Source: a virus. From it: a stretch of 64,000 nucleotides of DNA. The translations under genes were made by a program, and so were the position numbers. The stretch lies in IMG/VR virus record IMGVR_UViG_3300008450_000013, positions 1-64,000 of that record; one strand, 5' to 3'. Positions 2,623 to 29,706 of the stretch are shown one piece after another (position 1 is the stretch's first letter; every line of letters begins with the position of its first letter). The notes under the pieces are model-generated. The model saw nothing but the letters and a program-made list of their open reading frames with translations, made no database searches and was not told where the DNA came from.

Positions 2623-2651
2623 ATTATTGCAGAACTATTTTTATCTGTCAA
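2623..2651 (-). promoter_or_regulatory. sigma70-like promoter for the recombinase
   Basis: TTGACA-17nt-AATAAT on the minus strand. Confidence 0.6.
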
Positions 2652-3144
2652 GCTTTCTTTTCAAAATCTCAGCAGCCTTGATAAAATCTCTCAACCGCAT
2701 TCCCTGAAAAGCATCTGTCTGTACAAAATTATCTATCAGAGGCTCCATGTCACTGTCATCATCTAGAATGACAAAGTTATCAAACTCTGAGGAATACTTA
2801 TTAATCCACTGCAAGATTTCTTTACCTCGTCCGTGTTCTTCATAAGGAACCCCATTTATAGTAGGAGTCTTCCAACGATCATCTGTGTACATGTAATGTC
2901 CTAATGACGGACAAGCAGCTCCTAATATTCCTTGCAGTGCATATTGGTCGTAGAGTTTTCTCCAAGAGCTACTAATCACAATACGACAATTATATTCTTC
3001 ACAGAGACGCTTTACAAGACGACATGATACAGGGTCAAGATAGTTGTATCCTGCAATTTCTCCTTCTGCAATGCATGTCTCAGGGTTACAGATAACTCCG
3101 TCAAAATCCAAGAAGATGATGTTTGGTAGTGGCTTAGTTGTCAT
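2641..3144 (-). CDS. HAD-superfamily phosphatase (Swiss-Army-knife RNA-repair-like HAD domain)
   Basis: IFLDFDGV (DxD), IVISSSWR and FVILDDDSDM motifs. Confidence 0.85.
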   Translation of the reverse strand: MTTKPLPNIIFLDFDGVICNPETCIAEGEIAGYNYLDPVSCRLVKRLCEEYNCRIVISSSWRKLYDQYALQGILGAACPSLGHYMYTDDRWKTPTINGVPYEEHGRGKEILQWINKYSSEFDNFVILDDDSDMEPLIDNFVQTDAFQGMRLRDFIKAAEILKRKLDR

Positions 3145-3309
3145 TGTTAGTCACTCCCACATCAAGAACATAGAAAGCTCCTTTATAGAAGCTAATCGTA
3201 ACAACCCAGCCTTCAGACTCTGTTGTAACTACCTCTCCAAAAGCTTTGGCTTCGTCAAACATTTCTTGTGAAGGAGGTTTGTAGTGGACAGGGAATTCTA
3301 TGAATGGTT

Positions 3310-3558
3310 TCATAATTTCTTCTCCTTATTCAAATAGAACAATCTACTCTCGGCAATCTCTAACGCAAAAGCCTTCTCAGCTACTTTCTTTCTATTAGCC
3401 ATAACACCCTTCCACACATTTATGTCGTGGTTAGAGCTAATTCTTTCAATGTCACATAAATCTAAATCTTCCGAGCTACGAATTAATGTCCGCAGTCCTT
3501 GCCAATATGCATTGTACAGAGCTTTTAGTTCTGTGTCTTGTTGGTCTTCTGAGATCAT
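3310..3558 (-). CDS. hypothetical phage protein
   Basis: 82-aa ORF with AAGGA RBS. Confidence 0.55.
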   Translation of the reverse strand: MISEDQQDTELKALYNAYWQGLRTLIRSSEDLDLCDIERISSNHDINVWKGVMANRKKVAEKAFALEIAESRLFYLNKEKKL

Positions 3559-3885: not shown

Positions 3886-4113
3886 TTAGCTTCCTTTTAA
3901 TTTATGTTCTAAACGTATAATCTTCACTTGCATGTCATACTTATCACAAATATCATGGATAGTACTATTCTGATAGACAACAACCTCGACATCATTATGT
4001 TTCGCAACAAATCCATTCCGATGCGAGGTTCTAACTTCTTCTAGCACTCTTTGCAAGAAAAAATATATGTGCTCTCCTAATTGTGCTTCAACTACTGGCA
4101 TATTGTTATTCAT
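3886..4113 (-). CDS. hypothetical phage protein
   Basis: AGGAG RBS, 75 aa. Confidence 0.65.
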   Translation of the reverse strand: MNNNMPVVEAQLGEHIYFFLQRVLEEVRTSHRNGFVAKHNDVEVVVYQNSTIHDICDKYDMQVKIIRLEHKLKGS

Positions 4114-4123
4114 AAGTTCTCCT

Positions 4124-4492
4124 TTAGTTAATCAAATCAACAAGACATGTTGCTTCCAACAACACTTGATAATACCCATCACTGTGAGAATTCTCCCAAG
4201 CCTTCTCAAACAGTTTCTCACGCTTAGGGTGATTTGTAATCCCAAGCTCTTCAAATAAATCTTGTTTGAATTCATTGTAGAGCTTTGCCTTCTCTTCGTT
4301 ATATTGCTTCAAGTGTTTCTTGTAAGCTTCTTTGTTTAATACAGTTTCTTTAGCTGAGTAGTTTGTCGGAGCAACAATACCCACACCAGAAGCTGCAATA
4401 CAAACACCAGCTTTGTAGTAGTACGTTGTTTCATATTCTCGTTTGTTAGGGTATTTAGTTGTTGGTGTCGCGTAGTAATCCATGTCTTTCAT
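4124..4492 (-). CDS. conserved hypothetical phage protein
   Basis: AAGGAG RBS; first gene after the leftward promoter; FKQDLFEELG...HPK.EKLF.KAWE..HS.G motif. Confidence 0.75.
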   Translation of the reverse strand: MKDMDYYATPTTKYPNKREYETTYYYKAGVCIAASGVGIVAPTNYSAKETVLNKEAYKKHLKQYNEEKAKLYNEFKQDLFEELGITNHPKREKLFEKAWENSHSDGYYQVLLEATCLVDLIN

Positions 4493-4523
4493 TTATTTCT
4501 CCTTACGTTGTTAATGTGTAGTC

Positions 4524-4552
4524 ATTGTGAAGCATTTAAAATTCCTTGTCAA
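4524..4552 (-). promoter_or_regulatory. leftward sigma70-like promoter
   Basis: TTGACA-17nt-CACAAT on the minus strand. Confidence 0.6.
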
Positions 4553-4651
4553 GCATTTTGTTGAGTTAATTCTCTAGGAATTCCAGTTATATGAAATAAG
4601 TATATCTCTAATACGTGTTATCAATTATGGTGATATCTGTTATTAAGCTAC

Positions 4652-4680
4652 TTGCAATTTCACCATCTCACTGTTATAAT
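4652..4680 (+). promoter_or_regulatory. sigma70 promoter driving the putative ncRNA
   Basis: TTGCAA(4652-57)-17nt-TATAAT(4675-80) with extended -10 TG. Confidence 0.75.
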
Positions 4681-4686
4681 GTCTGT

Positions 4687-5168
4687 TACATAGAAGGGCG
4701 GTTGTAATTGTACGTTGGCTTCTATGGAATATGTGAAATCATATTACAGACATCTACCAAGGGAGTGCGCAAGGTGTCAGCTTGAAAGAAGGGTATTATT
4801 ACACATGCGAAATCAATCAAAGTTGATTAATAACGTGTCAATGATAGTATTCGGAAGTGGAAGCTTCGCACAGCATAATACAATAGTGCTGCATATAGCC
4901 ACTGAAATGAATGGAGTGTATTCTCACATTCTGCTTATAAGTGATAATCGGTGACAGGGATGTTCTGTTGTTGAGAGACTATAAGTAAACCTCTAAGCTG
5001 CTTCTTAGGAAGTGGCTAGGGAAAGTTTTGCTTAAAGTTCCTCTCAGTGACAGGGGTTATATACTACTGTAAGATGCATTCAGTTTACTTTAAGTACGTT
5101 ATATCAGAATAAATGATACAAATAAAGAGTACATAGAGCTACAGCCTTAATCGGTTAGTAGCTCTTTT
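4687..5168 (+). ncRNA. putative large structured non-coding RNA (~480 nt), family unassigned
   Basis: Bounded by a promoter and an intrinsic terminator; no credible ORF; many helices with G-U pairs valid only on the + strand (e.g. 4963-4977 with 5041-5055, 15 bp including 5 G-U). Confidence 0.7.
5135..5168 (+). terminator. intrinsic terminator ending the ncRNA
   Basis: AGAGCTAC...GTAGCTCT stem followed by T-tract. Confidence 0.7.
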
Positions 5169-5191
5169 GCTTTATGGAGAGAAGAAATATG

Positions 5192-5220
5192 TTGACATAC
5201 AAAACTAGAGGAGCTACTAT
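5192..5220 (+). promoter_or_regulatory. sigma70 promoter for the rightward gene block
   Basis: TTGACA-17nt-TACTAT. Confidence 0.75.
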
Positions 5221-5252
5221 TCTTTCATTCGCTAACAAACAAGGAGAAACAA

Positions 5253-5513
5253 ATGTCAAGATTTGAAGATTGGATATTAGAAACATCACGTAGAGCTGGA
5301 ACACATATTGACAGGAGCACAAATGGAACATACTTAGACAATCGTGTAGCTGCTAAATATTCTGCTTGGAAAGCTTCTAAGACGCTTCCAACAGCTAAAC
5401 AAGTTCTTGACACATATCATAATAATGTTGTAGAGTATGATCTGTCCACTAACGAAGGGATATTTATGTTGGTGTCTGATGTTGTTAATCGTATGAATAA
5501 GGAGGATGTATGA
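5253..5513 (+). CDS. hypothetical phage protein
   Basis: AAGGAG RBS after the promoter. Confidence 0.7.
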   Translation: MSRFEDWILETSRRAGTHIDRSTNGTYLDNRVAAKYSAWKASKTLPTAKQVLDTYHNNVVEYDLSTNEGIFMLVSDVVNRMNKEDV

Positions 5514-5785
5514 AACATTTCAATACTAGAACAGTACCAGAGAAAACAGAAACATACTGCAGTGGAACAACTTGTGACTTTTGCAATAACAGGCTAGATT
5601 TTGTAAAGTATGCTGACTACTCTGTAGTCGAGATGTCACATGAAGAAGGTGTTAATTATCCTGAATACAGCCATTACACTAAGGTGCACATCCACTCTTG
5701 TGTTACTTGCTTTAATTCAAAGATACTTCCAAAGCTTAAGGAAATAGCTATCAGCGAGTTCTATGTCGAGAAGTATGAAGATTGA
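5510..5785 (+). CDS. hypothetical Zn-finger-like protein
   Basis: CDFC...CVTC pairs; AGGAGG RBS; ATGA overlap. Confidence 0.7.
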   Translation: MKHFNTRTVPEKTETYCSGTTCDFCNNRLDFVKYADYSVVEMSHEEGVNYPEYSHYTKVHIHSCVTCFNSKILPKLKEIAISEFYVEKYED

Positions 5786-5990
5786 GACTGTACAAAACAA
5801 CAGGTGAGAAATATCATGAAGATATTTAGAGTGACATACAAAATATATGATGACTTTGGAGAATTAATCAGAATCAGTATTGACAAGCCTAATAAAGACG
5901 ATTATAGTTACACCACTGTCAAGGAACTTATATTTGACACAGAATTATGTGAAGAAGCTTTGTTTTAATAAATTTTAAAGGAGAATTACA

Positions 5991-7203: not shown

Positions 7204-7413
7204 ATGGAGAAGATGTATTATAATGGTAGGGAGGTTATTCTTGTTCAGAACATGTATGAGAGTAATCTGGATAATTTCCTCTGTCATAACTGTGTATTGG
7301 TGAGCGAGAACAACTGTGTTAAAGTGATTAACCCTCCACAGGGTAATAACATTTGTTGTCCTAGAAATAGTGGGAAGTTTTATGTATTTAAATTCAAGGA
7401 GGAAGCAGAATGA
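7204..7413 (+). CDS. small Cys-rich hypothetical protein
   Basis: AGGAGG RBS; CxxC...C...CC. Confidence 0.6.
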   Translation: MEKMYYNGREVILVQNMYESNLDNFLCHNCVLVSENNCVKVINPPQGNNICCPRNSGKFYVFKFKEEAE

Positions 7414-7867: not shown

Positions 7868-8059
7868 AGATTTATACGCCCTGTCATTCCCTTCAATGGG
7901 AAGCAGGGCTTTGTCACATCTGGCTTGTAATATGTGTGGGAATATTCTAGAGAATATTTTTATAAATTTAAAAAATTTTAAGGCCAACTTTCGGAGTTGT
8001 GTAATCATTCTCCCTCCCCATGAATTCCTCGTTTTCAGCCTGCTTTGTCAAGGATGCTT

Positions 8060-8150
8060 TACATAACTATATAAGCATATAACTATATAATCATATACGT
8101 ATATAACTATTTACGCATAGATGCAAATACGTATATAAGCATGTAAAGCA
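8060..8150 (+). repeat. AT-rich short imperfect tandem repeats (TATAACTA/TATAAGCA-like)
   Basis: ataactat ataagcat ataactat ataatcat ... atataactat ... atataagcat. Confidence 0.7.
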
Positions 8151-8566
8151 CGTTTGACTTTTCTTGTAATTGCGTTGGTAAGTGTTAGACAGCTCAAGGA
8201 CGTTATAGAATGCCGTTACAGCTTGCGAGAACGCCCCAGAATCAATTTAAAACACTTGGTAGGGTACTTACTAGCCTAAAACATTTAAACGGCTCAGAAT
8301 GGCTTAAAATGCTTGTCTGAATATGGCGTGCAGGAAGCAATTAATAGCGCAATTCCAAAGGAAGGCGAAACGAGGCACAAGCTAGCTTCAGAATATGATA
8401 ATAAGCTTGTGGGACTGTCAATAGAACGGACAGCGAAGGGAAACAAACGACAAGACGAATATTAAAACATATAAAACCAGAATGCAAGCATGTTGTGAAA
8501 ATACTTCAAAATAAATACATGCATATATAAGCATCAAATTATTTTGAAGTTATTTGCAGAAAGTTG

Positions 8567-8596
8567 TTGACAGAATTTTCGATTCTCTGTTAAGAT
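8567..8596 (+). promoter_or_regulatory. sigma70 promoter for the early small-ORF block
   Basis: TTGACA-18nt-TAAGAT with extended TG and an A/T-rich upstream region. Confidence 0.65.
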
Positions 8597-8757
8597 TCTC
8601 CCATCGCAGCAAAACAAGGTTTTACGAAACTTTGGACAAGCTAGTTAAGTAAGGGTGAAAAGTCAGGCGGATCAATTAGACGTTAAAACGCTACTCTGAA
8701 ATGCTAGAATGTTGAATGCGATAGTGTAAGAATGTTTAAATCAATTAAGGGAATATC

Positions 8758-8940
8758 ATGTTTGAATCAGATATGCTGGAAAATATGCAAGCTATGCCAT
8801 CTTATAAAATGAATGTTTATCGTGCATGTAAGTATAAAAACAAGTGGGCAGTGCTAGACACAAAAACGAATGTGTATTATTTTATTGGTACAGGTTTTAA
8901 ATTCTGCGAAGCCAAAGCGAAAGAATTAAATACATTATGA
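8758..8940 (+). CDS. hypothetical early protein
   Basis: AAGGGA RBS, 60 aa. Confidence 0.55.
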   Translation: MFESDMLENMQAMPSYKMNVYRACKYKNKWAVLDTKTNVYYFIGTGFKFCEAKAKELNTL

Positions 8941-9021
8941 AAGATTTTTCAACGCGCCAAGCTAGTATTTTATTGTTTGCAGTATTTTTTGTTTTAGTTC
9001 CTCTTTTAGAAAGTATTTGAT

Positions 9022-10610: not shown

Positions 10611-11354
10611 TAATGCAAACAAATTTCAACACAATCAAAACAATACGTAAGCCTAAGACACAAGAGGCAATCGAGAAGCAATCTAAAACGGCTTACAAGG
10701 GCAAAACGTGGAAGCGGGACACGAATAAGCGGGAAATGTACAATTATGCATCGGAGGCACGTTAAAATGATTTTATTTCACAAGTACAAGGGACATTCAA
10801 TAATACAAGGAAATGCGTATTTCTGGCACGAATTCAGCAGCAGAAAATTTGAGACTTTGAAGAATGCTAAAATATCACTTTCGAGTATTTTAAAAATAAA
10901 ATCGTGGCTGTTGTAAAATAATGCTTGACACAATCTTTTAAGTTATGAGATGATTCTCTTAACGCAATTGTTTTGATTCCCAAAACTGTTTTGCGCATAA
11001 TTAAACAGGGGTTCAAAATGAGAGATTATTTATTCAATGTAGTGTCTGCTGTAGTGATTGCATTCTTTATTATGTCGTTGTTAGTGTTTTTGGTGGTCAG
11101 TAGTCCTTTGCAAGCGAGTAATGATCATTTCAAAGGAATCCATACAAACTGCCTGCATGCAAAATAACTTGCACAGAATTAAAAGCCTAGTGTAAAATTA
11201 GGCTTCCTTCAAACAACTAATAAATAGGTTTTATCATGAGCTACGCTATACCGTACAAAGGAATCACACGGTTCTTCAACAGTGAAGAACAAGCGATAGT
11301 TTTCTGTAAGCTTGCTATGATTCCAGCTAATTCTGTCATAAAGGTGACATTATC

Positions 11355-11594: not shown

Positions 11595-11603
11595 GGAATA
11601 AGA

Positions 11604-11807
11604 ATGTTAACATCAATAGATAATCATAAAGAGGTATGCAAGGCAATAGCACCGATTGACTGGACTTATACAGGCTTCGATGATGGCTTCTATTGTTTTC
11701 AAACTGGGAGCTATTCAACAGGCTTCAAAGAAATGAAGTGTAAGCAAGTAGACTTGACTAAAGCTAACTTGGTGCTTATGGTAAGATTAAATATGACAAG
11801 GGTATAA
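11604..11807 (+). CDS. hypothetical early protein
   Basis: GAGGA RBS. Confidence 0.6.
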   Translation: MLTSIDNHKEVCKAIAPIDWTYTGFDDGFYCFQTGSYSTGFKEMKCKQVDLTKANLVLMVRLNMTRV

Positions 11808-11808
11808 C

Positions 11809-11991
11809 ATGACAATCAATACAATCAAGTTAGACAAGCGGTATACATACCACCTAGAATGGTGCGGTTATGTCACGCCACTGTATTGTGCAAGGTTCCT
11901 AGGCGAGCTTATATCTACGCATAGGAACAAACAGGATGCTATACAGGCGTGCTCAGATGCTTATGATAGGCGGATGGCAGAGTACCTATAA
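11809..11991 (+). CDS. hypothetical early protein
   Basis: EWCGY..P.Y.ARF.G motif; last ORF before the terminator. Confidence 0.6.
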   Translation: MTINTIKLDKRYTYHLEWCGYVTPLYCARFLGELISTHRNKQDAIQACSDAYDRRMAEYL

Positions 11992-12014
11992 GCATAAATG
12001 ATAGTGTCGTATCA

Positions 12015-12042
12015 TAAGCCGCTTCTCAGCGGCTTTTTTCTT
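12015..12042 (+). terminator. intrinsic terminator closing the early block
   Basis: AAGCCGC-ttctca-GCGGCTT followed by T-tract. Confidence 0.85.
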
Positions 12043-12090
12043 TATGTGGTGTGGTATAGTTGCGAGTAGGTTATAGTACCATTAGTATAC

Positions 12091-12151
12091 TTATCCACAG
12101 GTTATCATTACTTATCACAGAGTTTGTATGTTATCCACAGAGTTATCCACA
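12091..12151 (+). promoter_or_regulatory. cluster of DnaA boxes
   Basis: Perfect TTATCCACA at 12091, 12131 and 12143, plus degenerate copies at 12102 and 12112, all co-oriented. Confidence 0.8.
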
Positions 12152-12189
12152 GGCTGGAGGTCAATTGTAACCTTTGCAGCTAGTAAGGA

Positions 12190-12227
12190 CAAAGTGGTCT
12201 GACCAATTCAAAGTGGTAGTACCAATT
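12190..12227. promoter_or_regulatory. tandem 19-bp repeat, each a PdhR/FadR(GntR-family)-like palindromic operator
   Basis: CAAAGTGGTctgACCAATT and CAAAGTGGTagtACCAATT; each differs by one base from AATTGGTnnnACCAATT. Confidence 0.6.
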
Positions 12228-12902
12228 GATAAACTTCGAACCAATAGCAATATCACAACACTTTCAATTTGCAAGCACCTACTCTCACCAAATCCATCAC
12301 AATAGCACTCGATCAGATCACATCGTCGCAGTATCCTAGCCAGTCAATCTACCATAACACCACTAATACATCACTCACAATACCGATTGTAAGGCATTAG
12401 AATCACTGCCAAGCGATTATATTGTGCTGTCCTATGTCTTCCTATACCTAGGTTTCTAAACGCCTAGAATCGCTTCTATTAAGGGAAATAAACAGGTGTA
12501 ACGGTAACACTGGCGCGGGTTTCAAGGAAGTGTTAGATATTTTACAAGTTACAGGTGTAGCGTTACATGCGTAGCAGGGCGTGTTAAGCGAAGGAAGCGT
12601 CTCTGACCAATTTTGAAGATGACACCCTCTCAGATATATTTCCAGAATCTCGAAAATACTCTCCCACAAAGAGGCTATGTCAGAAAAATTTTCATAGAAA
12701 TTTCAGCTCTCAAACTCACTTTATGTTATCAGAATAGATATTTTCTGTACAGAATAGCAATTATATGTGTCTTAAAAGATACAATAAAATTAAATTTTCA
12801 GAATAATTCAATTTGGGAAGAATTTACGGAAGTATAGACAGGCATATTAATAGGATTTAATATGCTATTGGGAAGCGTCTTATAGTGGGAATTAGACGTA
12901 AG

Positions 12903-14037: not shown

Positions 14038-15696
14038 TTAGCCGTAAAGACGCTTACGAATTTCCTCTAAACTTTGACTTACAAGCAGCTCCCCATCACG
14101 GAATACTTCCTTCATCTCTCCTTGTTGCTCTTGCTCAGGAGTTTGCTCATCATAAAGAACAAAGTTGTCTCCTTCCTTCTCTACACGCAACAAACCCTTA
14201 GCAGATTTCTTAACACCACTATCTGTCTTAGGGTCTTTGAAGATGTTACGTGGTTCTCCATTCACAACACCATATGTTGCCTTCATAGCAAAACCAAAGC
14301 TATCACGAGTTTGATATTGATATGTGTATGAACCAATACCGAATACAATATTACCAGAGGCAAAGCCCTTAGCTTCCAGACGCTTCATAATCTCGTTAGC
14401 TCGCTCCAATGTAATAGAGTCTCCATAGATTAGCCCTACATGACTATCTAACATCTTATAACTTTTATCTGTTGTAGTTCCTCCGAATATATTCCATAAA
14501 CATTCTACTGAGCCTTTAACAACATGAGCTGGAACTTCTTCTAAGAGGTCTGCCCTATGATTCCAAGTCTCTCCTTCGTAACCATAATCACAGTCAATGT
14601 CAAACTTGAAATAACGATCATCAACTTTAATAACATCATACTCGTCCTGAATATCGTAATAATTGCTGCTGTTTACAGAGACATTGAATTCCTCAAGAGC
14701 TATGTAACGCAGCCCACAAATAATATCCACAGGATTGCCACTATCAGGACGGAACACTACTTTACTTAAGCCAAGAGCATTAGGCTGACGTGACATAATG
14801 ACATCTTTGAGTTGCTTAGAGTAGTCAGTAATCACTTGCCAGTAGTCCCAACTGTCACTTACAACAGAGACGACACCTATTGGGAATGTGTCTTGAATCA
14901 ATCGACGGAATGTTTCAATTTCATTATCAGCTCCTGATAAGCACATAACAGAGTGTTCAGATGCTGGTACACTTCCACCAACAAATGTCTCTTTACCACG
15001 ATAGTAGTCTTCCACATAGTCCATAGCTGGAATTGTATCTGTACCTAAGAATGATAACAAATGACCTGCTCCAGAAGCTGCTGCATCATGCACACCAGAC
15101 AGCCCTCGGAAAGAGAAGTCGTGCCCTTGCCACAATACAAACTCCTTAGAGCTGCCTGTCTTGTCAGCATAGCTATCTAGCAACTTACGATATTGGTGAG
15201 CTGTAGTTGCTGTTGTACTAGCTTTCCATAATTCTGCAGACATAACGGATTCAATGTAATTAGGAAGCCAGAAGAACTCATCAATTGTGTTTGTCACTGT
15301 CAGAACAGGAACCTTAATATCTACTAAGCTACCTTCTGGCAGAGCTTTAATACTTAATGGCAGGTATCCTAAATTATGTAAAGCTTCAATATGGCTTGTA
15401 TCTGGATTAGCAATACATAAGCCATTGGATACACGGCTGCGATATTCTTCCACCACTTTCTCTTTTGGCTGTTGGAAGAAGTTATTATTCCATGTATCTA
15501 TTAAGAATGACTTGATGAATCCTTGTAGCCCAAAGAACACAATCTTGTTATTAAACACTGCTGGAAGCTTAGAAGCATGTGTTGAGCTACGAGGTGTAAA
15601 GTTACTGTAAATCTTTGTTGTGCCTTTCTCGTACATATCTTTATGACCAATCTTGTAGTAGTCACAGGCTGTATGAGGTTTGATATTAAATGTCAT
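14038..15696 (-). CDS. nicotinamide phosphoribosyltransferase-fold enzyme (NadV/NAMPT-like; probable Namat of NARP1)
   Basis: DYYK.GH, HDFSFRG, SVPASEHSVM, SVVSDSWD, RPDSG, LIYGDSIT, KDPKTD.G.KKSAKG; adjacent to a Prs-like gene. Confidence 0.92.
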   Translation of the reverse strand: MTFNIKPHTACDYYKIGHKDMYEKGTTKIYSNFTPRSSTHASKLPAVFNNKIVFFGLQGFIKSFLIDTWNNNFFQQPKEKVVEEYRSRVSNGLCIANPDTSHIEALHNLGYLPLSIKALPEGSLVDIKVPVLTVTNTIDEFFWLPNYIESVMSAELWKASTTATTAHQYRKLLDSYADKTGSSKEFVLWQGHDFSFRGLSGVHDAAASGAGHLLSFLGTDTIPAMDYVEDYYRGKETFVGGSVPASEHSVMCLSGADNEIETFRRLIQDTFPIGVVSVVSDSWDYWQVITDYSKQLKDVIMSRQPNALGLSKVVFRPDSGNPVDIICGLRYIALEEFNVSVNSSNYYDIQDEYDVIKVDDRYFKFDIDCDYGYEGETWNHRADLLEEVPAHVVKGSVECLWNIFGGTTTDKSYKMLDSHVGLIYGDSITLERANEIMKRLEAKGFASGNIVFGIGSYTYQYQTRDSFGFAMKATYGVVNGEPRNIFKDPKTDSGVKKSAKGLLRVEKEGDNFVLYDEQTPEQEQQGEMKEVFRDGELLVSQSLEEIRKRLYG

Positions 15697-16501
15697 TGGT
15701 TTCTCCTTTTGGTAAATTTAAGATGATTGGGTTTGGTGTTCCCATCAGATTGTAAGTGTATATGCCATCAATAAGATTGTCAAACACTTTGTAACCTTTT
15801 GAGAATATTCCATGTGTTACATACAAATAGATTTTACCTGTTGTATGTGGACGTAATGCTTTAGCTAATTCTGTGAACGTCCATCCTCCTTCACAAATGT
15901 CGTCCACTATGATGAAGTCTTGATTACCTATATGACCTCCATTAAACTGTGTAGATATGATGTTACCTGTCATACAATCTCGTTCTTTAGTTGCTACCTC
16001 TACTCGACAATTCACAAGCTTGCCAAGAGAAGCCACTTTCTTCATAGCACCTGCATCTGGAGATACCAAAACACTATTAGCAAACACTTCTGTTGGTATA
16101 GTTGCTTTAGCGCACTTAGATAAATCATTATGTATCAGATTGTTGAACAGTGCTAATGGCACATCACTATGAGCATCACACACCACCACTGTGTTAAAGT
16201 TTAAGCTGTTAATAAAGTCAGCTACCACTTTAATTGATAGGCTTTCCCCTTCATTACATACCCTGTCCTGTCGTGCGTATGGAATGTAAGGCATTTCTAA
16301 GTGGATATCTGGTTTATATTCAGCCCTACGAATAGCATCTACAGCTAAAGCTAAGTTAAATAAATCTTCATTGCTTTCCCAATCCAACACTAATGTGAAT
16401 ACTCCACTAAGAACCTCATAGTTTGGTGTATAAACAACTTTACTCTCTCCTGCAGGAAACTTAGTGATTTCTAAGTTGTGTCCTTTTAATTTAACGCTCA
16501 T
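15686..16501 (-). CDS. ribose-phosphate pyrophosphokinase-fold enzyme (Prs-like; probable Adps of NARP1)
   Basis: FPAGE, PY.PYARQDR, DAHS, SPDAGA, IVDDICEGG.TF, LYVTHGIFS. Confidence 0.92.
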   Translation of the reverse strand: MSVKLKGHNLEITKFPAGESKVVYTPNYEVLSGVFTLVLDWESNEDLFNLALAVDAIRRAEYKPDIHLEMPYIPYARQDRVCNEGESLSIKVVADFINSLNFNTVVVCDAHSDVPLALFNNLIHNDLSKCAKATIPTEVFANSVLVSPDAGAMKKVASLGKLVNCRVEVATKERDCMTGNIISTQFNGGHIGNQDFIIVDDICEGGWTFTELAKALRPHTTGKIYLYVTHGIFSKGYKVFDNLIDGIYTYNLMGTPNPIILNLPKGETNDI

Positions 16502-20508: not shown

Positions 20509-21699
20509 TTAGAGATTGGGAGGGATGTCAAGAGAAATTTCTTTCAATCCCACACATAATTCCAAAACTTCCTCTTTTCTGTCAATGCTGATACTCTCAC
20601 GTCTGAAGCCTTCGCAGTCTATTAAGCCTGTCTTGTGTAACAACTTGATAGCATTCTCCACTGATAAAATCTTAGTACCAGACCCCTCGAAGATTCTCGT
20701 TGAGAGGATTTTGTAGCCTAAATCTTTTAAGTTCTTACGGTGTGTTGTAAGTCTGTTGTTGAGTTTGTTAGTTATGCCGTAGCCTAGAACAATGGTAGAA
20801 TCTGTTTGGATTTCTAGTAGGTATAGTGAGCCTTGTTTGGACTTATCATAGCCTGTTTTTGGAGGGTTGCATTCTATACATTCGTAGCCTATCGCAGATG
20901 TACTATCATGTACGCGAGAGTATAACCCATGTATCTTACAAACAAAAGTAGGGAACCAGTAGTTACCTTTCTTTACTGCACCAATAACAGATATATTCTC
21001 ATTATTACCCTCTGAAACCCTTCTTTTAGCCATTTCCGATATATAATCCCCAGATAACTTCTTCTTGGCAGAACAATAGCAAGGTATCCTACCTTTATCA
21101 AGATTGTTCAAGGTACTTTCAAACAAACTCTCAAGTCCTTTGGATTCGCAAATCTTACAATGAAATCCGCACCAAACACTACTGCCGAATTTCTTGCCAG
21201 TATCCCATACTGTGTAAGATGGATTGTTCATGTTGTATTTAGATAGAGTTTCACTAGCAGAATGAGGAATTCCTAAGTTCCCATCTCCAGCAAAGAAACT
21301 GTTGATCGAATTTATAGTGAATTCTATTCCCATCCTATTGCAGAAAAGATTTACTTCAGTATTACTTGGTTTTCCTGAAATTACTCCAAACCCTAAAAAT
21401 TTAATTGGGAGGTTTTCGGAAACAATTTTACGATCAATCTTGATTTTATACTGCATCAAGGAAATTCTGGGATTTTTGGCACAACCACATGGAATACTTC
21501 CTTTTCTTAAAGCAGTATAAACTTGCTCAAATACTGCATCACCATATAACTCTGGGTCTTTTGCACAAACCAGACATTTAACTTTTACATAACCGCCTTT
21601 AGCACGGCTAACAACTACAAGATTACCTTCATTAAATGTTTCTCCAACTCTACTTTTATTATATTCCCTCATCTCCATCCCACTTGTTATCTCTTTCAC
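20509..21699 (-). CDS. putative free-standing homing endonuclease: Zn-binding repeats plus C-terminal GIY-YIG-like domain
   Basis: CxxC / CxC / CxxH repeats; GSLYLL...GYGIT...RL..H and E..I GIY-YIG-like motif. Confidence 0.7.
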   Translation of the reverse strand: MKEITSGMEMREYNKSRVGETFNEGNLVVVSRAKGGYVKVKCLVCAKDPELYGDAVFEQVYTALRKGSIPCGCAKNPRISLMQYKIKIDRKIVSENLPIKFLGFGVISGKPSNTEVNLFCNRMGIEFTINSINSFFAGDGNLGIPHSASETLSKYNMNNPSYTVWDTGKKFGSSVWCGFHCKICESKGLESLFESTLNNLDKGRIPCYCSAKKKLSGDYISEMAKRRVSEGNNENISVIGAVKKGNYWFPTFVCKIHGLYSRVHDSTSAIGYECIECNPPKTGYDKSKQGSLYLLEIQTDSTIVLGYGITNKLNNRLTTHRKNLKDLGYKILSTRIFEGSGTKILSVENAIKLLHKTGLIDCEGFRRESISIDRKEEVLELCVGLKEISLDIPPNL

Positions 21700-27639: not shown

Positions 27640-27703
27640 AGAATAAGGGAAGGGATCAGCCAACCCCGACAGGATTGAGGAGTTCCTTATAAACCTCGCT
27701 TAG

Positions 27704-27800
27704 ATTGTAAATACAACAGCTCTCCACTGATTTCTCCTTGGCACGTTCCTCCTCCTCGTGCTTTCTCCTGTCAGTGTCTGAGAGCTGTTCTGTTTGCAAT
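27704..27800 (+). ncRNA. structured RNA element displaying three CU-rich anti-Shine-Dalgarno-like loops
   Basis: Nested stems ATTGTAAATA/TGTTTGCAAT, AACAGCTCTC/GAGAGCTGTT, CACTGA/TCAGTG and GGCACG/CGTGCT; loops TTTCTCCTT, TTCCTCCTCCT and TTCTCCTG. Confidence 0.65.
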
Positions 27801-27951
27801 TTTCACAACAGTGTTTCGTCCCATATCTGGTTAGTAGATTCAGCTCTTATCGTGGAACACTGTTGTAGTTTCGTGGAGAGGGTAGCATTATGGCTACTAA
27901 GGTTCTGGCAGGTAGTTTAGTGGCGTGGAACTAAGAATTTAAAGGAGTATT

Positions 27952-28050
27952 ATGGTTAAAAAAGATCGAGTAAAGTTTCAACCTTGCTCAGAGAAACAAA
28001 AGCTAATTTTGATGGATAACACCACGGACGTTATCCTGATAGGCGGTGGT
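27952..28050 (+). CDS. terL: terminase large subunit, exon 1 (33 aa)
   Basis: AAAGGAG RBS; MVKKDRVKFQPCSEKQKLILMDNTTDVILIGGG ends mid-Walker A; below the ORF-track length cutoff. Confidence 0.88.
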
Positions 28051-28284
28051 GAACTTGCGCCTCCGCATTAAAAACAACTTCTTAAACGGTGAAACTCTCT
28101 AGTAGACAATACCGTGCCAAGCCCCTGAAGGGTGCAGTGCGTAACGACCAATCCGAAAGGATGTAGGGCTAAGTAGCTCGAAACAGAAGTCCTCGAAAGA
28201 GTGAAGATATGGTCTGGTCTTTATGGTGACATAAAGCAGCTTAAAAAGCGGAAGTAGATTAACGAACTACTTTGAACACAAACA
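28051..28284 (+). ncRNA. ORF-less group I self-splicing intron (IA2-like) in terL
   Basis: P1 with U28050-G28059 wobble; P3 ACTTCT(28077)/AGAAGT(28185); P7 GACCA(28146)/TGGTC(28210) within AAGATATGGTCT; P7.1, P7.2, P8 and P9-9.2 hairpins; removal restores IGGGAGGGKS. Confidence 0.9.
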
Positions 28285-29706
28285 GCAGGAGGAGGCAAAT
28301 CGAGGATTTGCCTTACAAAGAATTTAGATGGTATTAAAGATGGAAAGTTCCGTTGCGTTATTCTGAGACGTTTTGAGCCAGAGCTTAAAAAACAAGGTGG
28401 CTTGATTGATGAATCCAAGAATATCTACCCACACTTTACAAAAATACCTTACAAAAGTCAACAAAAATTATGGGAATTTCCATCTGGAGCCACAATCGGG
28501 TTTTCAGCAATATCTTGTGACGATGATTTAGGGAGCTGGCAGGGTAGCCAACTAACGAGGGCTTTGATAGACGAGGCGGCTGATAAGTGGACTGAAAAAC
28601 AAGTTTTGTTCTTACAATCTCGTTTGCGTACAGTTGGCTCTGATATTCACCCGCAACTGATTATGTCTTGCAACCCAGACCCTAACAGTTTCTTATTTGA
28701 GTGGGTTAAGTTCTGTCTTGATGAAGACACAGGAGTACCAAAAGAAGGTACTGAGTATCTTATCAGATGGTTCTGTGTAGAAGATAACAAAGCTAAATGG
28801 GCTGATAGTCCAGAAGAGTGCTATGAATTATATGGTGCTCCCAAGAATCTAATTTATGCTCATGGAATGACAGAAGAACAGATGAACGCATTCTCTAAAG
28901 AAGAGAAGATGCGGTTGTTCATGCCTAAGTCATTCAGGTTCATTCCAACTGGTGTTTTTGACAACCCATATCTACTCCCACCAAAGAATACAAGTTACTT
29001 AGCATCTCTCCTTTCCCAACCTTATGTAAATCAGTTAAAATTTTTACATGGAAGTTGGACAGCACGAGAACTTGGGAGTTCTTACTTCGACAGAAAGTGG
29101 GTTCAAATCGTTGACCAACCTCCCGTAAATGCAACAGCTAGGATACGTTCTTGGGACTTCGCTTCAGAAGAAAAGACAAAAACTAACAACCCCGATTGGA
29201 CAGCAGGTGTAAAAATGTCTAGGGATAGGTACGGTATTTACTATATCGAGGATGTTGTCAGAGTGCAGATGCGGATTGACGGTGTTTTAAAAACCGTCAT
29301 TGAGACTGCTAAAGCTGACGGTGTAGGCGAATGTGAAGTCTGCATTCCAGTTGACCCTGCAGCAGCGGGTAAGAGTAGTGCTCACTTCTTTCAGAAGGTA
29401 TTAGCAGAAAATGGCATTCCTTGTAAGAAAGCTCAGTCCTCTGGACACAGTAGCAAGCTCACAAGATTTAAACCGTTTTGTGCATTAGCTGAGAGTGGTA
29501 GTGTTCGTGTGGTTCGAGGGGATTGGAACGATGCATTTTTTGCAGAGCTTGAAGCATTCTCTGGTGACAAAGCAATTGAGAGAACTCAGAAGAACGACCA
29601 AGTTGATGCTTGCTCAGATAGTTTTAACAATTTAGCAAGACAATTACAGCTACCTGTATTCTCAGTACCGTCCCTAACAAAAGCCTCTCCTGTCCCAACA
29701 ATATAG
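28285..29706 (+). CDS. terL: terminase large subunit, exon 2 (spliced product ~506 aa)
   Basis: AGGGKS completes Walker A; ALIDEA Walker B; SCNP; RSWDFA and NDQVDA RNase H nuclease motifs. Confidence 0.93.
   Translation, partial: AGGGKSRICLTKNLDGIKDGKFRCVILRRFEPELKKQGGLIDESKNIYPHFTKIPYKSQQKLWEFPSGATIGFSAISCDDDLGSWQGSQLTRALIDEAADKWTEKQVLFLQSRLRTVGSDIHPQLIMSCNPDPNSFLFEWVKFCLDEDTGVPKEGTEYLIRWFCVEDNKAKWADSPEECYELYGAPKNLIYAHGMTEEQMNAFSKEEKMRLFMPKSFRFIPTGVFDNPYLLPPKNTSYLASLLSQPYVNQLKFLHGSWTARELGSSYFDRKWVQIVDQPPVNATARIRSWDFASEEKTKTNNPDWTAGVKMSRDRYGIYYIEDVVRVQMRIDGVLKTVIETAKADGVGECEVCIPVDPAAAGKSSAHFFQKVLAENGIPCKKAQSSGHSSKLTRFKPFCALAESGSVRVVRGDWNDAFFAELEAFSGDKAIERTQKNDQVDACSDSFNNLARQLQLPVFSVPSLTKASPVPTI

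What the first reader, a model, noticed from the sequence alone, without database searches (positions are those of the whole stretch)
4652..5168. Orphan ~480-nt highly structured ncRNA with a dedicated promoter and terminator
Seen: a TTGCAA-17-TG-TATAAT promoter, no credible ORF, an intrinsic terminator, then a separate promoter for the next gene, so this is a stand-alone transcription unit. Helices include CATAGAAG/CTTCTATG (4689/4719), AATATG/CATATT, a composite 4791-4852 arm, CAGCAT/GTGCTG, GAATG/CATTC, and a ~93-nt arm (4963-5055) with a 15-bp helix containing 5 G-U pairs, capped by AGCTGCTTC-ttag-GAAGTGGCT. Many G-U pairs that work only on the + strand point to selection on RNA structure rather than DNA palindromes. 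I see no tRNA, tmRNA, RNase P or intron hallmarks. Inference: a large phage ncRNA of unknown function, such as a scaffold, an anti-defence decoy or antitoxin, or a replication primer at this transcriptional divergence point.
Basis: partly seen in the sequence, partly recalled or inferred. Interest (0 to 1): 0.82.

Follow-up and report, generated by a model that had tools for sequence, protein, structure and literature searches.

The report
New structured RNA gene in freshwater phages
A freshwater phage carries a stand-alone gene for a roughly 485-base folded RNA that makes no protein, matches no known RNA family, and keeps its fold in a related phage, but its function is still unknown.

Summary
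Window 4652-5176 (+) is a self-contained unit with an extended -10 sigma-70 promoter, an ORF-free body of about 485 nt, a bulged terminator hairpin with a U-tract, and then a separate conserved promoter for the next gene.

- **Setting:** the window is an 86.8-kb uncultivated freshwater FelixO1-like myophage.
- **Homologue:** one related IMG/VR phage (L004) has a full-length copy, about 61% identical in the body.
- **Conserved fold:** the two copies share a fold well beyond chance. Consensus energy is -63 against -20.9±4.7 for column-shuffled alignments, with 33 compensatory pairs against 12.2±3.5. The + strand scores better, and 12-16 of 95 pairs are G-U.
- **Indels and variants:** indels add or remove whole hairpins. 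Contigs from other freshwater runs carry variants about 94% identical.
- **Negative searches:** there is no conserved ORF, no Rfam match and no tRNA.
- **Dispensable:** one complete close relative lacks the cassette. Two others have a shorter body of about 300 nt at the same site, with no demonstrable homology in the body and no significant shared fold. This argues against an origin or packaging role.

Best reading: an accessory, early-transcribed structured RNA gene, an "RNA moron". It probably acts in trans on a host or phage factor, but that function is inferred, not shown. No RNA-seq data exist and the host is unknown.

The parts
4524..4552 (-). Leftward promoter (TTGACA-17-CACAAT) for the minus-strand early genes, the first being the 122-aa gene at 4124-4492
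   Evidence: The region is conserved in L002, L003, L004 and L013.
4560..4651 (+). Conserved stretch upstream of the RNA promoter that belongs to the cassette. It is absent together with the RNA in L003. An inverted repeat (4627-4636 / 4657-4666) brackets the -35 hexamer.
   Evidence: The region including the promoter is 84% identical to L004's genome over 197 nt and 77% identical to L013 over 171 nt. L003's match stops at about window 4580.
4652..4680 (+). Promoter of the RNA gene: -35 TTGCAA at 4652-4657, a 17-nt spacer, and extended -10 TG-n-TATAAT at 4672-4680
   Evidence: 10 of 12, TG present. Conserved in L004 and L013, and diverged in L002.
4688..5176 (+). Predicted transcript of about 485 nt. 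The start at A4688 is inferred from the spacing to the -10; the end lies in the U-tract.
   Evidence: The sequence is. The ends are inferred, because no RNA data exist.
4689..4726 (+). 5' hairpin CAUAGAAG/CUUCUAUG. L004 has ACAAGAG/UUCUUGU in the same position (read by eye). The Logan variant A4724G turns a U-A pair into U-G.
   Evidence: (I15).
4749..4778 (+). Hairpin with a 7-bp stem (3 compensatory pairs) and a conserved 16-nt loop, ACCAAGGGAGUGCGCA. The loop contains a Shine-Dalgarno-like AAGGGAG and the self-complementary UGCGCA (UGUGCA in L004).
4779..4865 (+). Closing helix 4779-4783/4861-4865 enclosing the long arm 4791-4801/4842-4852 (5 compensatory pairs) and the helix 4803-4807/4834-4838
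   Evidence: The same architecture appears in L004's own MFE.
4811..4828 (+). Optional 18-nt hairpin inserted in the apical loop. It is absent in L004 and deleted exactly in the contigs of runs X2 and X7.
   Evidence: table 4: 18 letters left out at 4811.
4871..4891 (+). Hairpin CAGCAU/GUGCUG (CAACAC/GUGUUG in L004)
4909..4931 (+). Hairpin GAAUGGA/UCACAUUC (GAGCAGU/ACAUGCUC in L004), with 4 compensatory pairs
4963..5055 (+). 3'-domain arm. The outer helix is specific to the window. The inner helix 4977-4989/5027-5039 (5 compensatory pairs) and the cap 4997-5013 are conserved. It contains the conserved block GGCUAGGGRAAGUUUUG.
5057..5072 (+). Small hairpin UUAUA/UGUAA with loop UACUAC and 2 compensatory pairs
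5076..5134 (+). A/U-rich 3' tail, mostly unpaired. It is shared at about 75% identity with the short-type RNA of L002 but not with L004.
5135..5176 (+). Intrinsic-terminator-like hairpin (5135-5146/5153-5165, one bulge) followed by UUUUGCUUUAU
   Evidence: present in 4 of 4 cassettes; 3 of 12 pairs compensatory.
5192..5220 (+). Separate rightward promoter (TTGACA-17-TACTAT) for the gene at 5253-5513. It is not part of the RNA gene.
   Evidence: The pattern is conserved in all 3 other records that were hit, including L003, which lacks the RNA.

Best explanation
Window 4652-5176 is an independent gene for a structured non-coding RNA of about 485 nt, in an uncultivated freshwater FelixO1-like myophage.

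**Shown**
- The unit has host-type promoter and terminator signals and no conserved ORF.
- A multi-helix fold is kept in a homologue that is about 61% identical, through compensatory and G-U changes.
- Indels add or remove whole hairpins.
- The cassette shows presence, absence and replacement among close relatives.

**Inferred**
- The host RNA polymerase transcribes it from the start of infection. It sits between the two divergent early promoters and has a near-consensus extended -10 promoter.
- It ends at its own terminator.
- It is an accessory unit, a "moron" whose cargo is an RNA rather than a protein.
- It acts in trans, most likely by binding or titrating a host or phage factor for host take-over or counter-defence. 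This rests on two things: the conserved unpaired loops presented by its helices, and the general rule that dispensable, fast-swapping early phage genes serve such roles.

The molecular target is not known.
For: - **Signals:** the promoter scores 10 of 12 with TG and is conserved in L004, L013 and L002. The terminator hairpin and U-tract occur in 4 of 4 cassettes. The next gene has its own conserved promoter.
- **No conserved ORF:**
- **No known RNA family:** Rfam gave 0 matches at gathering score in the window and in 5 related loci. The permissive searches gave nothing inside the RNA body.
- **No tRNA:** none in the window or the whole genome.
- **Conserved fold, window against L004:** with the terminator left out, the consensus energy is -63.0 against -20.9±4.7 in 100 column shuffles (z = -8.9). 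There are 83 pairs, 33 of them compensatory, against 12.2±3.5 (maximum 22) in the shuffles. The minus strand is weaker, at -38.4 with 18 compensatory pairs (the terminator is included).
- **Control less dependent on RNAalifold:** the window's own MFE pairs form in L004 in 86 of 122 cells (70%), against 31-46% when the partners are slid. The reciprocal test gives 77 of 113 (68%), against 36-48%.
- **Strand:** 16 of 95 pairs in the window and 12 of 95 in L004 are G-U.
- **Hairpin-sized indels:**
- **Variants elsewhere:** contigs from other freshwater runs carry the RNA. X7 has 32 changed letters and 20 gap letters over 515 nt. Adjacent coding pieces differ more (25 of 176, 22 of 151), and the flanking genes are replaced.
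- **Dispensable:** the cassette is absent from the 100%-complete relative G002 (L003) and has a different body in G001 (L002) and G004 (L013).
Against: - Transcription is not shown. No listed sequencing run is RNA.
- The structural case rests on two full-length sequences. The 33-of-95 count comes from a structure fitted to that same alignment.
- In the less fitted test, only about 70% of single-sequence pairs transfer between the two copies. Double-change pairs (24, and 22 in the reciprocal test) exceed the slid controls (8-18 and 8-13) only moderately.
- Single-sequence z-scores are modest and equal on both strands.
- The outer helix of the 93-nt arm is not conserved in L004.
- The short-type RNAs at the same site show no significant shared fold: z = -0.9 and 1 compensatory pair, against 2.9±1.6 in shuffles. 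They are not found by a covariance model of the long-type 3' arm. The site may therefore tolerate unrelated filler.
- The family is very rare: 2 full-length genomes in IMG/VR, and none in the GTDB genomes by pattern.
- Nothing tested here bears on the proposed trans-acting role.
Confidence: 0.6

Rival explanations
1. It is a cis-acting leader. Transcripts from the RNA promoter read through the terminator into the rightward early operon, and the folded RNA regulates that read-through. It would act as an attenuator, a riboswitch-like sensor, or a processive antiterminator in the manner of HK022 put.
For: - The unit lies directly upstream of, and in the same orientation as, the rightward early genes.
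- The U-tract is short, four U's followed by GC, so termination may be partial.
- The 3' arm of the terminator is 78% complementary to 5202-5219, just downstream (pair I5). This could allow an alternative pairing.
Against: - A separate promoter lies between the terminator and the first gene, and it is conserved in all relatives.
- The relative without the cassette keeps the same promoter-gene arrangement.
- The genes downstream of the cassette differ between the window, L004 and the X7 contigs, so no constant regulated gene exists.
- No riboswitch or leader family matched.
Confidence: 0.12
2. It is a replication origin or primer transcript. Transcription through the structured region would form an R-loop or a processed primer at the point of divergent transcription, as with ColE1 RNA II or the T4 oriF/oriG transcripts (both recalled, not tested here).
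For: - The unit lies at a strand-switch point where cumulative GC skew reaches its local minimum, at about 4300-4400.
- It has a strong promoter and a long structured RNA.
Against: - An origin should be essential, yet the 100%-complete relative G002 has no copy anywhere. Two other relatives carry a different body.
- The skew minimum coincides with the switch of coding strand, so it is confounded.
- The only cluster of perfect DnaA boxes is at 12091-12151, and none lies within or next to the element.
- No iterons or tandem repeats were found.
Confidence: 0.06
3. It is a non-functional spacer or a decayed gene remnant between two promoters, with structure that is fortuitous or a by-product. Alternatively, it is a DNA-level element such as protein-binding sites or a recombination hot spot.
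For: - The site tolerates loss of the cassette and replacement by unrelated sequence.
- A more distant relative (L014) has a 770-nt ORF-free gap at the same position with no stable fold, z = -0.56.
- The short type shows conserved sequence boxes but no conserved fold.
Against: - The consensus fold lies far outside the shuffled alignments and is better on the + strand.
- Compensatory changes are spread over at least 8 helices.
- Indels come as whole hairpins.
- In the X7 contigs the RNA body is better conserved than the neighbouring coding pieces.
- The dedicated promoter and terminator are conserved.
- No protein-family remnant was detected.
Confidence: 0.1
4. It encodes one or more small proteins, for example the 79-aa TTG ORF at 4715-4954 or the 13-15-codon ORFs that start at the conserved GAAATGA.
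For: - A 79-aa ORF exists in the window.
- Both long-type copies have a short ATG ORF at the same conserved block. This was read by eye.
Against: - The 79-aa ORF is broken in L004. Its longest + strand open frame is 44 aa, each frame has 9-15 stops, and tblastn gives only 39% identity over 46 aa at E = 0.004.
- No Shine-Dalgarno sequence precedes either ORF.
- The indels of 18, 20 and 26 nt are mostly not multiples of three.
- The substitutions in the short ORF region are the compensatory pairs of helix 4909-4931.
- There is no significant PHROG hit.
Confidence: 0.03

Closest known systems
ROOL and GOLLD, large ornate RNAs of unknown function that are often phage-associated (Rfam families). 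Source: 10.1101/2024.12.08.627333, of which only the search listing and the start of the abstract were seen; sizes and phage association are recalled.
   Same: - It is a large, multi-helix non-coding RNA carried by phage DNA.
- It has conserved loops and variable peripheral hairpins.
- Its function is unknown.
   Different: - There is no match to either covariance model, even in the permissive search.
- At about 485 nt it is smaller than GOLLD.
- It is not next to tRNA genes; this genome has none.
- Oligomer formation was not tested.
Phage ncRNA candidates mapped by ONT-cappable-seq, Grad-seq or RNA-seq in Pseudomonas phages, such as PAK_P3 ncRNA1/2 and the phiKZ UTR-derived RNAs. Source: PMC10914365, 12 passages read with 'find'.
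   Same: They are phage-encoded non-coding transcripts that are conserved within a genus and have no known function.
   Different: - In the passages read, those RNAs are 89 to about 210 nt and derive from 5' or 3' UTRs by premature termination or processing.
- This unit is about 485 nt, has its own promoter and terminator, and has comparative support for a complex fold.
Morons: independent promoter-gene-terminator units inserted between phage genes (concept recalled from the lambdoid-phage literature; no paper read)
   Same: - It has its own promoter and terminator.
- It is inserted between conserved neighbours.
- It is present in some close relatives and absent in others.
   Different: - The cargo is a structured RNA rather than a protein.
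- The phage is virulent-type (FelixO1-like), not a prophage.
Type III antitoxin RNAs and their phage mimics (ToxI and pseudo-ToxI; recalled)
   Same: It would be a phage-borne non-coding RNA that could neutralise a host protein.
   Different: - There are no tandem repeat units in the long type.
- No endoribonuclease toxin gene lies next to it.
- There is no Rfam match.

Membership tests
Any Rfam 15 family, including ROOL, GOLLD, OLE, HEARO, 6S, tmRNA, RNase P, group I/II introns, riboswitches and small ribozymes | A score at or above the family's gathering threshold against its covariance model | tested here: not met
   - There were 0 matches at gathering score in the 64-kb window and in 5 related loci.
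- The permissive search of 4450-5300 gave only a 26-bit RefA9 match (gathering score 49) and two MIR159 matches, all on the terminator hairpin.
- The permissive search of L004, L002 and L013 gave nothing inside the RNA units.
- Caveat: a first-stage note claims a group I intron at 28043-28295, which Rfam also did not report. That claim is unchecked, so a negative result here is not absolute.
tRNA / tmRNA | Cloverleaf or tmRNA architecture detectable by ARAGORN | tested here: not met
   0 genes in the window and 0 in the whole 86,810-bp genome.
Type III toxin-antitoxin antitoxin RNA (ToxI-like) | Tandem direct repeats of about 36 nt next to an endoribonuclease toxin gene | tested here: not met
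   No tandem family was found in 4400-5300, only scattered two-copy matches of 9-19 nt. The neighbouring genes are small proteins of unknown function and differ between phages.
Moron-type accessory transcription unit | Its own promoter and its own terminator flanking the cargo | tested here: met
   The signals are conserved in 4 of 4 cassettes. Their function as signals is inferred, not measured.
Moron-type accessory transcription unit | Presence/absence polymorphism between otherwise collinear relatives | tested here: met
   In L003 (G002, 100% complete) the two divergent promoters lie about 65 nt apart and no copy exists elsewhere in the record.
Replication-origin primer RNA (ColE1 RNA II / T4 ori transcript type) | Essential and universally present in replicating relatives; origin features such as DnaA boxes, iterons or a DUE at the site | tested here: not met
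   The cassette is absent from one complete relative. There are no DnaA boxes within or next to the element (the nearest, with one mismatch, is at 7266; the perfect trio is at 12091-12151) and no iterons. Priming itself cannot be tested with these tools.
Structured ncRNA (generic criterion) | Conserved secondary structure supported by covariation beyond matched controls | tested here: met
   Met for the long type, with the limit that only 2 full sequences were available. Not met for the short type.

The most novel reading that the evidence does not exclude
The divergent early-promoter hub of these freshwater myophages is a swap site for RNA cargo. It holds a promoter-terminator cassette that carries interchangeable non-coding RNAs, either a folded RNA of about 485 nt or an RNA of about 300 nt with two identical G-rich boxes.

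The long RNA would be the founding member of a new class of large structured phage RNAs. They would be made at the very start of infection to bind or neutralise a host factor, for example a defence effector, an RNase or the translation apparatus. Binding would go through displayed conserved loops, such as the Shine-Dalgarno-like and self-complementary 16-nt loop at 4756-4771. In short, an RNA counterpart of protein anti-defence genes.
Probability: 0.25. Interest if true: 0.85.

Novelty: new variant of a known kind. Interest (0 to 1): 0.6.

Why it matters
- **Rarity of the type.** Large structured RNAs of unknown function are few, and each one studied so far has revealed new biology. Phage-encoded RNAs are much less explored than phage proteins.
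- **An experimentally tractable unit.** The RNA is compact and self-contained, with host-type signals and clear boundaries. Comparative support gives a testable secondary structure with named helices, loops and an optional hairpin.
- **A natural genetic experiment.** Close relatives carry the long RNA, carry a different RNA, or carry none.
- **Wider meaning if functional.** It would show that the accessory early "arms-race" region of phages trades RNA genes as well as protein genes.
- **Limits.** The host is unknown, no expression data exist, and only two full-length copies are in hand.

Tried and rejected
- **Known RNA families.** Four Rfam searches and ARAGORN gave nothing.
- **Cultured relatives.**
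  - blastn of the element against 50,697 phage records gave no match.
  - The nearest cultured phage by capsid (OP714164, 63% identity) does not share the flanking early genes.
  - No paper mentions that phage.
- **More homologues.**
  - Protein-anchored and pattern scans of IMG/VR found only four related genomes plus one distant one.
  - The metagenome scan returned only L003's own contig.
  - The GTDB pattern scan returned one match inside a 720-aa ORF of a Prevotellaceae MAG, with no hairpin context. I judge it a chance match; by my own estimate about 0.5 chance matches were expected.
- **Mis-specified patterns.** Three collection scans were wasted on my own errors: overlapping anchors; one N too many. 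The pattern was corrected after a local check.
- **Expression.** No RNA holder was listed among the sequencing runs, so nothing can be said about expression.
- **Long and short types.** A covariance model of the long-type 3' arm (R1) found only its two training sequences at E ≤ 0.01. It found nothing in L002, L013, L012 or L014 even at E ≤ 10. MAFFT alignment of the four 3' domains gave no common fold beyond the terminator and one 5-pair hairpin.
- **Short-type fold.** It is not significant (first attempt).
- **CsrA-sponge idea.** About 9 GGA motifs in 482 nt, counted by eye, is near the 7-8 I expect from composition, so I dropped it. No tool call supports this count.
- **Antisense targets.** Only short imperfect repeats were found, such as 4702-4717 and 5093-5106 against 4413-4433 (D2 and D6). 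They are not distinguishable from chance and were not pursued.
- **RNA-guided nuclease partner.** The 396-aa "endonuclease" has a CapR domain. Among the 10 proteins scanned, nothing resembling TnpB, IscB or a reverse transcriptase appeared.
- **L014.** Its 770-nt gap at the same position has a similar promoter layout but no terminator call and no stable fold.
- **Earlier notes of this scan.** There was no look-alike by sequence.
- **Supplements.** The supplementary tables of PMC10914365 (Table S7, its ncRNA list) were not opened. They could hold comparable stand-alone phage RNAs.
Full report
**Setting.**
- The window is the first 64 kb of an 86,810-bp IMG/VR virus record with direct terminal repeats.
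- Its large terminase, portal and major head proteins match PHROG families, and it encodes NAMPT and ribonucleotide reductase.
- The closest cultured capsid is Pseudomonas phage vB_PsaM_M1 at 63% identity. After that come Aeromonas, Pectobacterium and Rheinheimera myophages of 80-120 kb. I call the group FelixO1-like from recall; the call only lists Escherichia (332) and Salmonella (97) records among the 984 records matched.
- The runs that hold the DNA are labelled freshwater metagenomes.
- The finding lies where a block of minus-strand genes (ending at 4492) meets a block of plus-strand genes (starting at 5253).

**The observation.**
- *Promoter.* The described promoter is there: TTGCAA at 4652-4657, a 17-nt spacer, and TG-n-TATAAT at 4672-4680, scoring 10 of 12 with the TG. 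Promoter-like matches are frequent in this AT-rich DNA (18 found against 11.7±4.0 expected). The site counts only because the same promoter stands in front of the homologous units of L004 and L013, and in diverged form L002.
- *ORFs.* All six frames of 4686-5168 carry 8-12 stops. The longest ORF is 79 aa from a TTG start (longest open frame 86 aa).
- *Terminator.* The 3' end has a 12-pair hairpin with one bulge (5135-5146/5153-5165), followed by UUUUGCUUUAU. The simple terminator scanner missed it. The hairpin and U-tract are nevertheless kept in all four cassettes, with compensatory change in 3 of 12 pairs.
- *Next promoter.* Twenty-six bases downstream, TTGACA-17-TACTAT (5192-5220) and the 5' leader of the next gene are conserved in every relative, including the one that lacks the element.

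**Relatives.**
- *Searches.* Protein-anchored and pattern searches of IMG/VR found four related genomes and one distant one. The metagenome and GTDB collections added nothing real.
- *L004 (record G003).* It has a full-length homologue at about 2875-3352 (+). The promoter-upstream region is 84% identical and the terminator region 87%, but the body is only about 61% identical.
- *L002 (G001) and L013 (G004).* They have a shorter unit of about 300 nt between similar promoter and terminator signals.
  - L002 shares about 100 nt of 3' tail with the window (75% over 183 nt, which also covers the terminator and the next promoter).
  - L013's matches to the window cover only the promoter region and the terminator region.
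  - Otherwise the bodies do not align with the long type.
- *L003 (G002, 100% complete).* It has the two divergent promoters about 65 nt apart and no copy anywhere else in the record.
- *Flanking genes.* The genes next to the cassette differ between the window (122 aa on the left, 86 aa on the right) and L004 (65 aa on the left, 81 aa on the right).
- *Other freshwater runs.* Logan contigs carry close variants.
  - In X7, one contig covers 4547-5061 with 32 changed letters and 20 gap letters.
  - Its neighbouring coding pieces differ more (25 of 176, 22 of 151).
  - The genes on both sides are replaced or skipped in X7.

**Is it a folded RNA?**
- *Single sequences.* These say little. The z-score is -2.93 on either strand of the window and -3.50 for L004.
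- *Comparison of the two long-type copies.* This is much stronger.
  - RNAalifold on their MAFFT alignment gives 95 pairs in 16 helices, 33 of them with changes on both sides. Because that structure is fitted to the alignment, I ran matched controls.
  - I shuffled alignment columns within conservation and gap classes and refolded. Without the terminator, the real alignment scores -63.0 kcal/mol with 83 pairs and 33 compensatory pairs. One hundred shuffles give -20.9±4.7, 53.8 pairs and 12.2±3.5 compensatory pairs (maximum 22), so z = -8.9.
  - The reverse strand gives -38.4 and 18 compensatory pairs against 9.2±3.2. With the terminator included, z = -11.7 against -8.4.
- *A less fitted test.* The window's own MFE pairs, projected onto L004, form in 86 of 122 cells (70%) against 31-46% for slid partners. 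The reciprocal test gives 77 of 113 (68%) against 36-48%. Double-change pairs number 24 and 22, against 8-18 and 8-13 in the slid controls. Roughly two thirds of either single-sequence fold is therefore shared, not all of it.
- *Best-supported helices.*
  - 4749-4755/4772-4778
  - 4779-4783/4861-4865
  - 4791-4801/4842-4852
  - 4803-4807/4834-4838
  - 4871-4876/4886-4891
  - 4909-4915/4924-4931
  - 4977-4989/5027-5039 with its cap
  - 5057-5061/5068-5072

  L004's independent MFE recovers the same 5'-domain architecture.
- *Strand.* 16 of 95 pairs (window) and 12 of 95 (L004) are G-U and would be A-C mismatches on the other strand.
- *Indels behave as in structured RNAs.*
  - The 18-nt hairpin at 4811-4828 is absent in L004 and is deleted exactly in X2 and X7.
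  - L004 has two extra hairpins where the window has gaps.
  - One variant shared by X2 and X7, A4724G, turns a U-A pair of the 5' hairpin into U-G.

**Not coding, and not a known RNA.**
- The 79-aa ORF is not kept in L004.
- No ORF in the unit has a significant PHROG match.
- Rfam gave no match at gathering score in the window or in five related loci. Permissive searches hit only the terminator hairpin weakly.
- There is no tRNA or tmRNA in the whole genome.

**The short type.**
- L002 and L013 are 72% identical across their units but show no significant common fold: z = -0.9, with 1 compensatory pair against 2.9±1.6 in shuffles.
- Their most conserved parts are two boxes of about 30 nt, similar to each other and identical between the two phages.
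- A covariance model of the long-type 3' arm does not find them.
- I therefore treat the long and short bodies as different cargos in one promoter-terminator cassette. The alternative is that they have diverged beyond recognition.

**What it most likely is and does.**
- *Shown.* It is a conserved, self-contained, ORF-free unit. Its long form keeps a multi-helix fold under substitution. It can be lost or exchanged.
- *Inferred.*
  - The host sigma-70 polymerase transcribes it from the onset of infection, and it terminates at its own hairpin.
- Its dispensability speaks against any essential cis function such as an origin or a packaging site.
  - The conserved downstream promoter and the changing downstream genes speak against a dedicated leader.
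- *Reading.* What remains is an accessory trans-acting RNA. By analogy with accessory early phage proteins, I propose that it binds or titrates a host or phage factor.
- *Possible contact points.*
  - the 16-nt loop at 4756-4771, which is Shine-Dalgarno-like and ends in a self-complementary hexamer;
  - the block GGCUAGGGRAAGUUUUG;
  - the A/U-rich tail before the terminator.
- *Status.* None of this was tested. I give about 0.8 to "a real structured RNA gene" and about 0.35 to the trans-acting take-over or counter-defence role.

**Comparison with what is known.**
- It works like a moron, with its own signals, insertion between genes and presence/absence polymorphism, but with RNA cargo.
- It resembles ROOL and GOLLD only in being a large phage-borne RNA of unknown function. 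It fails their models.
- In the passages I read (PMC10914365), the phage ncRNA candidates are 89 to about 210 nt and UTR-derived, unlike this stand-alone RNA of about 485 nt.
- My paper searches found no description of this RNA. Those searches do not cover subscription journals.

**Limits.**
- There are two full-length sequences only.
- The host is unknown, and no RNA data exist.
- Three collection scans were lost to my own pattern errors.

Noticed in passing
L002:3277-3583 (-) and L013:5603-5895 (+): At the same cassette site there is a non-coding unit of about 300 nt. It contains two boxes of about 30 nt (GGGGCUUGUGAGUAGUAGAGU... and GGGGCUUAUGAGUAGCGAGU...). The boxes are 100% identical between the two phages, while the rest of the unit is about 72% identical. 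No conserved fold was detected. They may be protein-binding or processing sites.
   Followed up: partly
window 4627-4636 / 4657-4666: An inverted repeat (ATGGTGATAT / ATTTCACCAT) brackets the -35 hexamer of the RNA promoter. Its GGTGA/TCACC core is kept in L004. It looks like an operator, so the RNA gene may be repressible.
   Followed up: no
window 5156-5173 / 5202-5219: The 3' arm of the terminator is 78% complementary to the spacer and -10 region of the next promoter. AGAGCTAC (terminator) and GGAGCTAC (promoter) are near-repeats. This could allow an alternative pairing on read-through, or it could be a trace of the recombination that inserted the cassette.
   Followed up: no
L014:3351-4123: A distant relative (32% identity in the 199-aa neighbour) has a 770-nt ORF-free gap at the same divergent-promoter position. 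It has a leftward TTGACA-17-TATAGT promoter and a rightward TG-extended -10 promoter, but no terminator call and no stable fold (z = -0.56).
   Followed up: partly
window 12091-12151: Three perfect, co-oriented TTATCCACA DnaA boxes lie within 61 bp. Four more perfect copies are scattered through the window.
   Followed up: partly
whole genome (G000, 86,810 bp): There are no tRNA or tmRNA genes at all. From recall, this is unusual for a FelixO1-like myophage of this size.
   Followed up: partly
window 7868-9021, 10611-11354, 11595-12447, 27664-28401: These are other stretches of 740-1150 nt with no ORF of 70 aa or more. They may hold small genes or further non-coding units.
   Followed up: no
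window 2641-3144 (-): A 167-aa protein matches Pfam HAD_SAK_2, the HAD domain of 'Swiss Army Knife' RNA repair proteins (E = 6.5e-23). It lies 1.5 kb left of the RNA gene, in the leftward early block.
   Followed up: no
window 14038-16501 (-) and 20509-21699 (-): There is a NAMPT-like protein of 552 aa and a ribose-phosphate pyrophosphokinase-like protein of 271 aa. The 396-aa 'endonuclease' carries a CapR homology domain.
   Followed up: no
window 3887-4547 and 5238-5834, as seen in the contigs of run X7: In another freshwater sample the RNA cassette is kept at about 94% identity. The genes on its left are replaced by 341 other letters, and the two genes on its right are skipped. The early region around the cassette is highly mosaic.
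   Followed up: partly
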